Source of the DNA: Pecten maximus
Taxonomy: Eukaryota
Length of the DNA stretch: 64,000 bases
Reading direction: 5' to 3'
Assembly (NCBI RefSeq): GCF_902652985.1
Contig: NC_047023.1
Coordinates: 35,898,001 to 35,962,000, forward strand
A program made the position numbers. Each line of letters starts with the position of its first letter. The first letter of the stretch is position 1. Positions 60,001-63,000 of this stretch are shown here, piece by piece.

Positions 60001-63000
60001 GCAATATGCATAACTAGGCACCAAGGGAAACCTACAAATGAAATTTCAGAAAGATCCATTCAGTACTTTCTCAGAAATAGTGGTAACAAACTTCAATTGT
60101 CAAAATCCAAGATGGCTGCCTGTCGGCCATGTTGTTTTCCGATTGGTCTCAAATCGCAATATGCATAACTAGGCACCAAGGGGAACCTACATATGAAATT
60201 TCAGAAAGATCCCTTCAGTACTTTCTCAGAAATAGCGATAACAAACTTCAATTGTCAAAATCCAAGATGGCTGCCTGTCGGCCATGTTGTTATCCGATTG
60301 GTCTCAAAACGCAATATGCATAACTAGGCACCAAGGGGAACCTTCATATTAAATTTGAGAAAGATCCCTTCAGTACTTTCTCAGAAATAGCGATAACAAA
60401 CTTCAATTGTCAAAATCCAAGATGTCTGCCTGTCGGCCATTTTGTTTTCGGATTGGTCTCAAATCGCAATATGCATAACTAGGCACCAAGGGGAACCTAC
60501 ATATGAAATTTCAGAAAGATCCCTTCAGTACTTTCTCAGAAATTACGATAACAAACTTCAATTGTCAAAATCCAAGATGGCTGCCTGTCGGCCATGTTGT
60601 TATCCGATTGGTCTCAAAACGCAATATGCATAACTAGGCACCAAGGGGAACCTTCATATTAAATTTGAGAAAGATCCCTTCAGTACTTTCTCAGAAATAG
60701 CGATAACAAACTTCAATTGTCAAAATCCAAGATGGCAGCCTGTCGGCCATTTTGTTTTCCGATTGGTCTCAAAACGCAATATGCATAACAAGGCAGCAAG
60801 GGGAACCTACATATGAAATTTGAGAAAGATCCCTTCAGTACTTTCTGAGAAATAGCGATAACAAGAATTGTTTACGGACGGAGGGACGGACGGACGACGG
60901 ACGACGGACCACGGACGCAGGGCGATTTGAACAGCCCACCATCTGATGATGGTGGGCTAAAAAAACACATAAGTCATTAAATACTGTAAACTTTCAATAT
61001 TTTGAATAATCAATAAAATAATATAGATACATTATCTAAACTTCCTTTAAAGTCATGATATGTGTACAGAAATAAATATTCTAATTGAAATAATTTTTGA
61101 CTTCCTTAATAAAATGAAATACAGTTTAATTACATTTTAATAAAATATGAAATAATAAGCAATTAACTGTCATAAAAACCTGATTATAGCATAAATTGTA
61201 TAACTGTATTTTATGGATCTTAATAAATATAGATTTAACATGTAGGCATTATTACCATGTATTAACAATAAAATAAATATTCCTAGTAGACTATAAACAA
61301 ATGTAAATAGTAATGTGAACAGAACAAAAGTAATTTGTAAAAATCTATTTATTTATAATAAATTATATTGAAAGCATCAAAGTATTAATATTTATATATG
61401 ATATAGTCTGATTATAGACCCGGGGCAGACATGGTGTCTTATAGGACTCCAGGTAGACTCGGAGTCCACTTGGAGTGCACTCCAAGTTTACCTGGAGTCC
61501 AAACGGAGTGCACTCCAAGTCCAAACGGAGTGCACTCGGAGTGCACTTGGGTGTAACCTTTAGTCTACACTCAACTGTAGTTCTTATACCATGCACCAAC
61601 GACGTCACTAGAGCCATAAGGCAATGCATTTGTCAAATCTGGCACTGTCCGCAAACACAGCTCCACGAAAAATAACAGGATGAGGTACTTCTGGATTGTC
61701 TTCACCCAGAATTCTTTCTCTAATTGCAAGAGATTCCATATGAAGTGCCCTGAAATCCTGTCGAATTGCATCTAGTTCAACAAGAGTTTTACACTCAACA
61801 CGATTATCGTATGCTGGCACTGGGTCACAATGCGGCTTTTCAATAATACTTTGTGGGTCACTATACCGAACATGCATGGCTTCTCGAAGGTATAGAAATG
61901 CCTTGTTGATATCATAGTTTTCTTTGTCATTTGCGTAAGAAGCTCCTAAAAGTTCTAGCGCATCAATCTTTTCTTCACGTTTGCATTCAGGCAGTGAAAT
62001 TAAATACTCCACGACCTCAGACTTTCCACATTCAGCTGCAACTGTAAGTGGCGTCATGTTGTGATCATTCTTTAATCCTGATGCACCAAACTGTACTAAT
62101 TCGTGTACGATTTCTAAGTGGCCACATTCTGATGAGAAATGCAAAGCTGTTGCTCCACAATGAGCACTACAATCTGGATTTGCCCCGTTCTCCAGTAGGT
62201 ACCGTACTACCTCCTTGTGTCCTTTGTAGCTGGATATCATCAAACATGTATTGTTGTACTTGTTGGATATCTTGGGGTCTGCATTGTGTTCTATTAGATA
62301 TTTCACAATGTCGAGTCTGCCATCGAAACATGCGGCTCTGAGTGGTGTAGAGTTTGTAAGCGTTGGGTGGTTTACATCCGCTCCATGGTCAATTAACAAT
62401 TTGACCACACCGAAATGACCGGCCCCAGCAGCGCACCACAAAGACGTGGCTCCTTCAATTACAAAACCGTCAAATTTCACAACACCTGTTTGTTCTATAT
62501 CTACCAAAAAGTTAGTCAACAACACAGCTACTACCTTTTCTTCACCATTTCTTGCGGCAATAATAAGCGGTGTTGTTTTCTGTCCATCTTCCTCCGAGTG
62601 GTGCTCTAAAACCTCTCTTACTATTTCCCTTTCAACGTTCCACAGCATGGCAAAGATGCTAATGGCCATTCCATCGCGTGCAGAAGTGAATACTTTATGT
62701 TTCAAAGTTTTTATAACTTCTGGAGTATATTCAGAGGCCATGACTTTAACCCAAAACACCGTCAACAGTTTACTTTGTACAGAATCATCCTGTTTCGGCA
62801 GCCATACTTATTCAGTTTTATTGCGCATGTCAAATCAGAGTTACTTCCCCTCTTCCACACCATAAACGAGTTCGAAGCTGAATAAATTTTTTTTGTATTA
62901 TTTTTTTTTTTTTTACATTTCAAGAGCATGCACCAAAATGAACAGCAGTCACTGAGAATATTTTTTTTTTTTTAAATAATATACAATAATACGATCAATA

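What the first reader, a model, noticed from the sequence alone, without database searches (positions are those of the whole stretch)
61608..62741. Truncated FEM1B duplicate keeps the degron-binding half but loses the Elongin/CUL2 box: candidate decoy receptor
Seen: an open 377-aa ORF with the same ATG context and at least 1.2 kb of duplicated upstream sequence, closed by a TAG from the junction. It keeps the N-terminal ankyrin/TPR region, including the AHC and NDH residues that correspond to the mammalian zinc-dependent FNIP1-binding site. It lacks the C-terminal ankyrins and the SLKCIAA BC/VHL box. Established: the FEM1B N-terminal fragment alone binds degrons, and the C-terminal box recruits ELOB/C-CUL2. 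Inference: if expressed it could protect substrates from degradation. It lies upstream of the intact copy in the transcription direction, so it could also act as an alternative last exon. Three of the four coding differences I spotted are non-synonymous.
Basis: partly seen in the sequence, partly recalled or inferred. Interest (0 to 1): 0.7.

Follow-up and report, generated by a model that had tools for sequence, protein, structure and literature searches.

The report
Young truncated FEM1B gene duplicate
A mollusc-like genome carries, 8.6 kb upstream of its normal FEM1B ubiquitin-ligase receptor gene, a nearly identical recent copy cut off after residue 377; it keeps the substrate-binding half and loses the ligase-docking half, but nothing yet shows it is more than a neutral gene fragment.

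Summary
An intact single-ORF FEM1B orthologue lies at 52268-54172(-). A 377-aa copy lies at 61608-62741(-), within a direct duplication (61612-64000 = 53043-55428, 99.54% identity) that runs to the window end. The break falls inside codon 377, and TAG comes from unrelated sequence.

The copy keeps ANK1-7, the first TPR helices and the Cys186-equivalent. It lacks the aromatic degron pocket, the ANK9-10 dimer patch and the BC/Cul2 box. Its model superposes on the FEM1B:FNIP1 crystal fragment (TM 0.92), though the last ~27 residues are low-confidence.

The decoy function is untested, and the sequence gives no sign of selection. pN/pS is 0.84 from four changes, coding and non-coding divergence are equal, and an open frame is expected at 0.33% divergence. 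All three replacements look derived in the truncated copy, and R222G has no precedent in 120 orthologues.

Most likely this is a very young DNA-level partial duplicate drifting neutrally. A haplotype mis-join cannot be excluded without reads; the absence of any assembly gap and the replacement pattern argue weakly against it. "Alternative last exon" has no support.

The parts
61608..62741 (-). Truncated FEM1B copy: ATG to TAG, 377 aa (ANK1-7 plus the first TPR helices)
   Evidence: ORF list. Pfam ankyrin families match as in the full copy. AF2 model has pLDDT 91.2 and pTM 0.84. Best PDB fold match is 7roy_A, FEM1B:FNIP1, TM 0.92.
52268..54172 (-). Intact FEM1B orthologue: single uninterrupted ORF, 634 aa
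   Evidence: phmmer against PDB gives FEM1B 8ij1_D E=9.5e-224 (747.6 bits), end to end, against FEM1C 8pql_H at 428.5 bits. Mollusc FEM1B proteins are 60-91% identical.
61612..64000 (.). Duplicated segment, copy 2 (codons 1-377 plus 1259 bp upstream); runs off the window end
   Evidence: blastn gives 99.54% identity over 2389 columns. Differences are listed.
53043..55428 (.). Duplicated segment, copy 1
61581..61611 (.). 31 nt of sequence unique in the window between the breakpoint (61611/61612) and the palindrome-rich repeat; supplies TAG (61608-61610) and the next in-frame TGA
   Evidence: The blastn-short search found only 7-10-nt chance matches elsewhere.
61424..61580 (-). Palindrome-rich ~150-bp repeat (MITE-like), 31 nt from the breakpoint
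   Evidence: 84.7% identical over 157 columns to 55593-55736 in inverted orientation, and self-complementary internally. Ends read.
55593..55736 (+). Second copy of the same repeat, 165 bp beyond the last visible base of copy 1's duplicated segment
62157..62162 (-). His194-Cys195 codons of the truncated copy (equivalent to human H185-C186)
   Evidence: Read. Mapping is from the alignment (query = human + 9). C195 is present in 120 of 120 orthologues and H194 in 100 of 120.
52346..52366 (-). SLKCIAA (residues 603-609), the BC-box region of the intact copy; L604 corresponds to human L597. Absent from the truncated copy
   Evidence: Alignments. tblastn found no second copy.
61348..61353 (-). First AATAAA on the minus strand, 255 nt downstream of the TAG. 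ATTAAA follows at 467 and 478 nt
   Evidence: Motif scan. In sequence this AT-rich it shows only that polyadenylation is possible.
59553..60958 (-). Context: non-autonomous Helentron-like element (HINE) on the minus strand. It has an 11-nt arm, 4-nt spacer and complementary arm, then a GTCC/GTCG microsatellite, then 8.5 copies of a 155-bp repeat. It lies ~650 bp downstream of the truncated ORF
   Evidence: The layout matches the published HINE scheme (PMC7492417, passages).
56749..57465 (+). Context: ORF resembling the C-terminal zinc-binding region of non-LTR reverse transcriptases, between the two copies
   Evidence: No Pfam hit. Atlas feature hits fall in clusters where 60-62% of members carry PF13966 zf-RVT, score 0.91-0.92; this is a lead only.

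Best explanation
This is a real, very recent DNA-level duplication, head to tail. It is probably tandem with a period of about 8.57 kb. It copied the FEM1B promoter-proximal region and the first 377 codons.

One breakpoint fell inside codon 377, and the adjoining sequence supplied an immediate stop codon. The result is a stand-alone truncated paralogue 8.6 kb upstream of the intact gene, on the same strand. It is evolving without detectable constraint, so it is a gene fragment or nascent pseudogene, possibly still polymorphic.

If transcribed and translated (inferred, not shown), it would give a monomeric ANK1-7/partial-TPR module. That module could bind Arg-type C-degrons and Cys/zinc degrons. 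It could not bind Elongin B/C-CUL2, could not dimerise through the ANK9-10 patch, and could not use the aromatic pocket.
For: Shown by the sequence:
- 2389 columns at 99.54% identity in direct orientation, with co-duplicated non-coding upstream sequence. That excludes retroposition.
- No N anywhere in the window.
- The break and stop are as described.
- The C-terminal half is single-copy.

Pattern of change:
- pN/pS is 0.84 (3 changes over 880 N sites; 1 over 248 S sites).
- P(at least 3 of 4 replacements) is 0.79 at omega=1 and 0.058 at omega=0.1.
- Coding divergence is 4/1128 and upstream divergence is 4/1259.
- The truncated copy carries the state that departs from relatives at all three replacement sites. 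At position 217 it has Q; copy 1 has K, the closest relative P0001 has R, and the column is variable in 120 orthologues (K 22, R 22, Q 3). At 222 it has G, seen in 0 of 120, where copy 1 and P0001 have R. At 371 it has K, where R is seen in 114 of 120.

What the product would keep and lose:
- Fold: pLDDT 91.2, TM 0.92 to 7roy.
- Missing parts were mapped from the and 11 alignments onto published sites: L597, F549/V584/I587/L588, and V391/Q394/F501/H502 (PMC11053023, PMC13174492).

Context: the window is rich in tandem arrays, 29 TRF rows, so the region is prone to duplication.
Against: - No reads, depth or second assembly could be examined, so the duplication itself is not independently confirmed.
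- The far end lies beyond the window, so 'tandem' is inferred from spacing only.
- Four coding changes give almost no power. Neutrality cannot be told apart from weak or very recent selection.
- Position 217 is a variable column, so polarity there is uncertain.
- The nearest difference lies 18 bp from the junction (P=0.059 if the 8 substitutions were spread evenly). That could reflect either error-prone repair or an assembly bubble.
- The species is absent from the protein collection (best hit 91%; exact look-ups negative). Neither expression nor presence in other individuals could be checked.
Confidence: 0.6

Rival explanations
1. Assembly artefact. Two haplotypes of one FEM1B locus were laid in series (a false heterotype duplication), so the 'truncated copy' is the allele of the intact gene.
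For: - Identity of 99.5% is within the range of allelic difference.
- Four of the six upstream differences sit in or beside homopolymer runs at 62886-62961.
- The first difference lies only 18 bp from the junction, P=0.059.
- False duplications are common in assemblies of heterozygous genomes (PMC9516828, abstract and passages).
- The region is dense in repeats.
Against: - There is no gap between the copies (0 N in the 64000-nt window). Gaps between the pair are one of the published hallmarks (PMC9516828).
- Alleles of a gene this conserved would rarely differ by 3 replacements against 1 silent change (P=0.058 at omega 0.1, 0.20 at omega 0.2). It is less likely still that all three departures sit on the same allele, one of them (G222) unseen in 120 orthologues.
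- Both arguments are weak given n=4.
Confidence: 0.2
2. Functional decoy or dominant-negative paralogue. The copy is expressed from its duplicated promoter and sequesters FEM1B substrates away from CUL2, or docks onto full-length FEM1B. It would thereby tune degradation.
For: - The ORF is open, the first 144 nt upstream of the ATG are identical, and a poly(A) signal lies 255 nt downstream.
- The module is confidently folded to about residue 350 and matches the crystallised degron-binding fragment.
- Key groove residues are intact: W102, R135, F139, D140, H194, C195.
- CUL2-blind FEM1B traps substrates in human cells (PMC13174492).
- The helix equivalent to human 269-284, which contacts the C-terminal ankyrins of another protomer, is retained with Y284. 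The L278 equivalent is E287 (PMC10943247).
Against: - An open frame is the default at 0.33% divergence.
- pN/pS is 0.84, and the replacements are derived in this copy, including R222G five residues before H227.
- The C-terminal ~27 residues have pLDDT 51-61, and the break falls mid-helix.
- The human 1-356 fragment has Tm 35.6 C and aggregates (PMC12612594).
- The copy lacks the aromatic pocket and the C-terminal FNIP1/FLCN contacts (PMC11053023, PMC10943247).
- No N-terminal-only form ending near residue 377 appears among the 120 best relatives: 1 of 120 ends before position 600 of copy 1, the partial record P0086, ending at position 591.
Confidence: 0.07
3. The duplication is real but not a simple tandem repeat. 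A ~2.5-kb FEM1B 5' fragment was copied between two inverted copies of the palindrome-rich repeat, by template switching or capture within a composite element.
For: One copy of the repeat lies 31 nt from the breakpoint (61424-61580). The other lies 165 bp beyond the last visible homologous base of copy 1 (55593-55736), in inverted orientation.
Against: - The breakpoint is not at the repeat's end; 31 unique nucleotides intervene.
- No target-site duplication or terminal inverted repeat could be defined.
- The decisive side lies beyond base 64000.
Confidence: 0.08

Closest known systems
Human/mouse FEM1B N-terminal crystallisation fragments (PDB 7roy, 6lbf, 7cng; about 1-356 to 1-377)
   Same: Same domain span. 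The truncated ORF ends at the equivalent of human residue 368. The model superposes at TM 0.92 with 58% identity. These fragments bind FNIP1, BEX3 and CDK5R1 degrons (PMC12612594).
   Different: Those are laboratory constructs. This is a genomic copy ending mid-helix, with three replacements, and its expression is unknown.
FEM1B L597A / R126A-L597A substrate-trap mutants
   Same: Substrate binding is kept and CUL2 recruitment is lost; substrates are bound but not degraded (PMC13174492, passages).
   Different: The mutants are full length, so they keep the aromatic pocket, the dimer patch and the C-terminal substrate contacts. Here the whole C-terminal 257 aa is missing.
Truncated duplicated paralogues that antagonise their parent gene (dm-W from dmrt1 in Xenopus; figlaY in cichlids)
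   Same: A partial duplicate keeps the binding part of a developmental regulator. FEM-1 is a sex-determination factor in C. elegans (recalled).
   Different: Those are old, sex-linked and functionally shown. I saw only the search listings and the start of the abstracts (PMC9250109, PMC13232571). Nothing here shows linkage, age or function.
Ordinary partial gene duplicates and unprocessed pseudogene fragments
   Same: DNA-level copy including flanking non-coding sequence, an arbitrary breakpoint inside the CDS, and a neutral substitution pattern.
   Different: It is still an intact ORF coinciding with an autonomous folding and binding module, with the proximal upstream sequence unchanged.
False heterotype duplications in assemblies
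   Same: Near-identical neighbouring copies in a probably heterozygous genome (PMC9516828).
   Different: There is no gap between the copies. Depth and k-mer criteria are not testable here.

Membership tests
FEM1B orthologue (intact copy, 52268-54172) | Closer to FEM1B than to FEM1C/FEM1A over the full length | tested here: met
   FEM1B 8ij1_D scores 747.6 bits over residues 12-634. FEM1C 8pql_H scores 428.5 bits. Named hits are 'protein fem-1 homolog B'.
FEM1B orthologue (intact copy) | ANK1-7 / TPR / ANK8-10 / VHL-box architecture with the BC-box leucine | tested here: met
   End-to-end alignment. L604-K605-C606 and A609 are at least 90% conserved in the 14-sequence alignment. The architecture is defined in PMC11053023.
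CRL2 substrate receptor (truncated copy, 61608-62741) | BC box / Cul2 box able to recruit Elongin B/C-CUL2 | tested here: not met
   The ORF stops after L377, and no second copy of residues 378-634 exists in the window. It therefore cannot be filed as an E3 receptor.
CRL2 substrate receptor (truncated copy) | Degron-binding groove residues (human W93, R126, F130, D131, C186) | tested here: met
   W102, R135, F139, D140 and C195 are present. They are conserved in 116-120 of 120 orthologues.
Natural decoy / dominant-negative paralogue | Transcribed and translated | not testable with these tools
   No RNA data were available. The species is absent from the protein collection.
Natural decoy / dominant-negative paralogue | Maintained by selection (constraint on the ORF, presence in relatives) | tested here: inconclusive
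   pN/pS is 0.84 from 4 changes. None of the 120 best relatives ends near residue 377. No genome of a related species was available.
Natural decoy / dominant-negative paralogue | Binds substrate and blocks its degradation | not testable with these tools
   Inferred only from human fragment and L597A data (PMC12612594, PMC13174492).
False (heterotype) assembly duplication | Gap between the duplicated pair | tested here: not met
   0 N in the window. The criterion is from PMC9516828.
False (heterotype) assembly duplication | Half read depth / single-copy haplotype k-mers / discordant reads | not testable with these tools
   No reads were available.
Processed (retro-)pseudogene | Copy limited to mRNA sequence, poly(A) tail, no promoter | tested here: not met
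   1259 bp of upstream non-coding sequence is co-duplicated, and the copy ends inside the CDS without an A-tail.

The most novel reading that the evidence does not exclude
The truncated copy is an expressed, naturally occurring 'substrate-trap' paralogue of a cullin-RING receptor. It would be a genomic dominant-negative of FEM1B that shields Arg/C-degron and Cys/zinc-degron substrates. It might be polymorphic or sex-linked in a mollusc, in the way dm-W and figlaY arose as truncated duplicates.
Probability: 0.05. Interest if true: 0.75.

Novelty: new member of a known kind. Interest (0 to 1): 0.25.

Why it matters
If the copy is real and expressed, it would be a natural version of the CUL2-blind FEM1B used in the laboratory to trap substrates. 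It would show a ubiquitin-ligase receptor being turned into its own inhibitor by a single duplication breakpoint. That bears on how dominant-negative regulators, and in some animals sex-determining genes, originate.

As the evidence stands it is more useful as a caution. An open frame with an intact binding domain is the default state of a duplicate only 0.3% diverged. In a repeat-rich invertebrate assembly that may well be heterozygous, such a copy must first be validated with reads before it is counted as a gene.

Tried and rejected
- **Exact look-up.** Neither protein is in the 15-billion-sequence collection.
- **Homologue search.** The nearest relative is 91% identical (P0001, an unnamed record, cited by id only). 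Neither the species nor transcripts of the truncated form could be found.
- **Interrupted rather than truncated copy.** I looked for a remnant of the C-terminal half elsewhere in the window. tblastn found none, with the next best hit at E=1.0.
- **Origin of the 31-nt junction filler.** Only 7-10-nt chance matches were found.
- **Microhomology at the breakpoint.** Not assessable, because the original sequence following the distal breakpoint lies outside the window.
- **Retrocopy origin.** Rejected, because upstream non-coding sequence is co-duplicated.
- **Helentron capture.** The HINE ends about 650 bp from the junction, so there is no direct link.
- **Zinc-binding histidines.** The structural paper that defines the FNIP1 zinc site was not held.
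- **Literature.** Two searches for a truncated or decoy FEM1B, or a duplicated truncated fem-1, found nothing relevant. One search gave 29 papers holding at least 4 of 5 terms, of which 12 were listed and none was on this topic. One search gave 0 papers.
- **Complex prediction.** None was run, because I do not claim that the fragment binds full-length FEM1B.
- **Public DNA collections.** No related eukaryotic DNA could be compared.
- **Window checks.** The window contains no N. The contig is not human (about 35% G+C; best protein hits are molluscs). The gene is one uninterrupted ORF, so no spliced model had to be joined.

Full report
**What is there**

The window is AT-rich (about 35% G+C) and has no N. 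On the minus strand, 52268-54172 is an uninterrupted 634-aa ORF and 61608-62741 is a 377-aa ORF.

The long ORF is a clear FEM1B orthologue:
- It aligns end to end with mammalian FEM1B chains (8ij1_D, E=9.5e-224, 747.6 bits). FEM1C scores 428.5 bits.
- Its named relatives are mollusc 'protein fem-1 homolog B' at 60-74% identity.
- One unnamed 634-aa record, P0001, is 91% identical.
- Neither protein is in the collection letter for letter, so the species is not represented.
- The contig is invertebrate, not human. Because the gene is a single ORF, no spliced model had to be joined.

**The duplication**

blastn of the region against the window gives 61612-64000 = 53043-55428. That is 99.54% identity over 2389 columns, with 8 mismatches and 2 gap openings, in direct orientation and offset 8569-8572 bp.

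The match runs to the last base of the window, so the distal end is unseen. A window-wide self-comparison shows no other copy of any part of the gene.

Homology ends inside codon 377:
- Copy 1 reads TGG CTA CAT and copy 2 reads TGG CTC TAG TGA.
- The protein therefore ends at L377 with no foreign tail.
- The stop comes from 31 nt of sequence unique in the window (61581-61611).
- That stretch abuts a palindrome-rich ~150-bp repeat (61424-61580). An inverted partner of the repeat lies at 55593-55736.
- tblastn with the C-terminal 257 aa finds only the intact gene, and the next best hit has E=1.0. The copy is truncated, not interrupted.

**Differences between the copies**

| Region | Differences |
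|---|---|
| Coding | K217Q (AAG>CAG), R222G (AGA>GGA), R292 silent (CGC>CGG), R371K (AGA>AAA), plus the junction codon |
| Upstream | 4 substitutions and 2 T-run length changes; four of these six lie in or next to homopolymers at 62886-62961 |

The first 144 nt upstream of the ATG are identical.

**Is there a signature of function?**

Nei-Gojobori counting gives 880 non-synonymous and 248 synonymous sites, so pN/pS = 0.84. Three or more replacements out of four has probability 0.79 at omega=1, 0.20 at omega=0.2 and 0.058 at omega=0.1.

Coding divergence (4/1128) and upstream divergence (4/1259) are the same.

I checked polarity against 120 orthologues and the 14-sequence alignment:

| Position | Copy 1 | Truncated copy | P0001 | 120 orthologues |
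|---|---|---|---|---|
| 217 | K | Q | R | Variable: E 28, R 22, K 22, Q 3 (other residues make up the rest) |
| 222 | R | G | R | M 54, I 33, Q 12, V 7, L 5, F 5, R 2, W 1, C 1; G 0 |
| 371 | R | K | R | R 114, K 5, H 1 |

At all three sites the truncated copy departs from the relatives. This is what relaxed constraint on the truncated copy predicts, but with n=4 it is only suggestive.

At 0.33% divergence an open frame is the default, not evidence of maintenance.

**What the product would be**

With a 41-sequence alignment, AlphaFold2 gives mean pLDDT 91.2 and pTM 0.84. Confidence is high to about residue 350 and falls to 51-61 for the last ~27 residues. The break falls in the middle of a TPR helix, which the model places at 369-376.

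Foldseek places the model on the FEM1B:FNIP1 crystal fragment (7roy_A, TM 0.92, 58% identity), then on other N-terminal FEM1B fragments.

I mapped human residue numbers through the alignment (+9 in the N-terminal half, +7 in the C-terminal part).

The copy keeps:
- W102, R135, F139 and D140;
- H194 and C195, with C195 present in 120 of 120 orthologues;
- H227.

The copy lacks:
- the aromatic pocket (human V391/Q394/F501/H502);
- the ANK9-10 dimer patch (F549/V584/I587/L588; F556, V591, V594 and I595 in copy 1);
- the BC-box leucine (L597; L604 in copy 1).

These sites are defined in PMC11053023, PMC10943247 and PMC13174492, of which I read passages.

Published data bearing on the decoy idea:
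- Human 1-356 binds FNIP, BEX3 and CDK5R peptides, but has a Tm of 35.6 C and aggregates (PMC12612594, passages).
- L597A cannot bind CUL2 and is used as a substrate trap (PMC13174492).
- Full FNIP1/FLCN also contacts the FEM1B C-terminus (PMC10943247).

The structural premise of the decoy idea is therefore sound. The fragment would be a partial and possibly unstable binder. The zinc-ligand roles of H185 and H218 could not be checked, because the defining paper was not held.

**Could it be expressed?**

The proximal upstream sequence is identical in both copies. An AATAAA lies 255 nt downstream of the TAG on the coding strand. These features permit expression but do not show it.

No RNA data, reads or related eukaryotic genomes were available.

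The 'alternative last exon' idea has no support. Each copy starts with its own ATG and its own upstream sequence.

**Real or artefact?**

Published hallmarks of false duplications are half read depth, gaps between the pair, discordant reads and haplotype-specific k-mers (PMC9516828, passages).
- Only the gap criterion is testable here, and it is not met (0 N).
- The replacement-biased, one-sided pattern of change is unlikely for two alleles of a strongly conserved gene.
- Against that, the homopolymer differences and a difference 18 bp from the junction (P=0.059) are compatible with an assembly bubble.
- I put the artefact at about 0.2.

**Verdict**

| Reading | Confidence |
|---|---|
| Very young DNA-level partial duplicate of FEM1B, an intact-ORF gene fragment drifting neutrally | 0.6 |
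| Haplotype mis-join | 0.2 |
| Repeat-mediated, non-tandem duplication | 0.08 |
| Functional decoy | 0.07 |

Two literature searches found no description of a truncated or decoy FEM1B paralogue. It is a new instance of a familiar kind of event, not a new kind. The closest functional analogues are truncated duplicates such as dm-W and figlaY, of which I saw the search listing only.

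Noticed in passing
window 59553-60958 (minus strand): Complete-looking left half of a non-autonomous Helentron (HINE). It has an 11-nt arm, a 4-nt spacer and a complementary arm, then a GTCC/GTCG microsatellite, then 8.5 copies of a 155-bp satellite-like repeat. 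This is the layout published for oyster Cg_HINE elements. The right flank was not delimited.
   Followed up: partly
window 16724-17235, 33188-34595, 40933-41740 and others: The window is unusually rich in minisatellites, 29 TRF rows. Several units contain sequences that look like exon ends followed by GTA/GTAGG donor-like sites. They sit in or next to plus-strand ORFs with WD40 or RCC1 Pfam hits. The 548-aa 'ORF' at 32970-34616 is largely a translated 51-bp array. This may be tandem expansion of exon-intron junction pieces of a plus-strand RCC1/WD40 gene.
   Followed up: no
window 4442-8993: A 4.5-kb array of a 42-45-bp repeat with strong negative GC skew. It is interrupted at 5852-7024 by an element 89% identical to 30997-32146.
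   Followed up: no
window 34609-36907 (+) and 56674-57465 (+): Retroelement remains. One is an RVT_1 reverse-transcriptase ORF (E=7.7e-24). The other is a separate ORF whose nearest Atlas clusters carry the zf-RVT domain (0.91-0.92, lead only). The second lies between the two FEM1B copies.
   Followed up: partly
window 56410-56445: A run of about 34 consecutive C between the FEM1B copies. A long homopolymer such as this is a place where assembly and polishing errors would be expected.
   Followed up: no
window 62742-62975 (minus strand, upstream of both ATGs; equivalent 54173-54400): Two A-rich runs about 145-235 nt upstream of the ATG look like tails of old retroposons. Between them and the ATG lie GGAAGT-like and CATGCGCA-like motifs. 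The core promoter may therefore be confined to roughly 145 nt, all of it identical in both copies. The motif identities are recalled, not tested.
   Followed up: no
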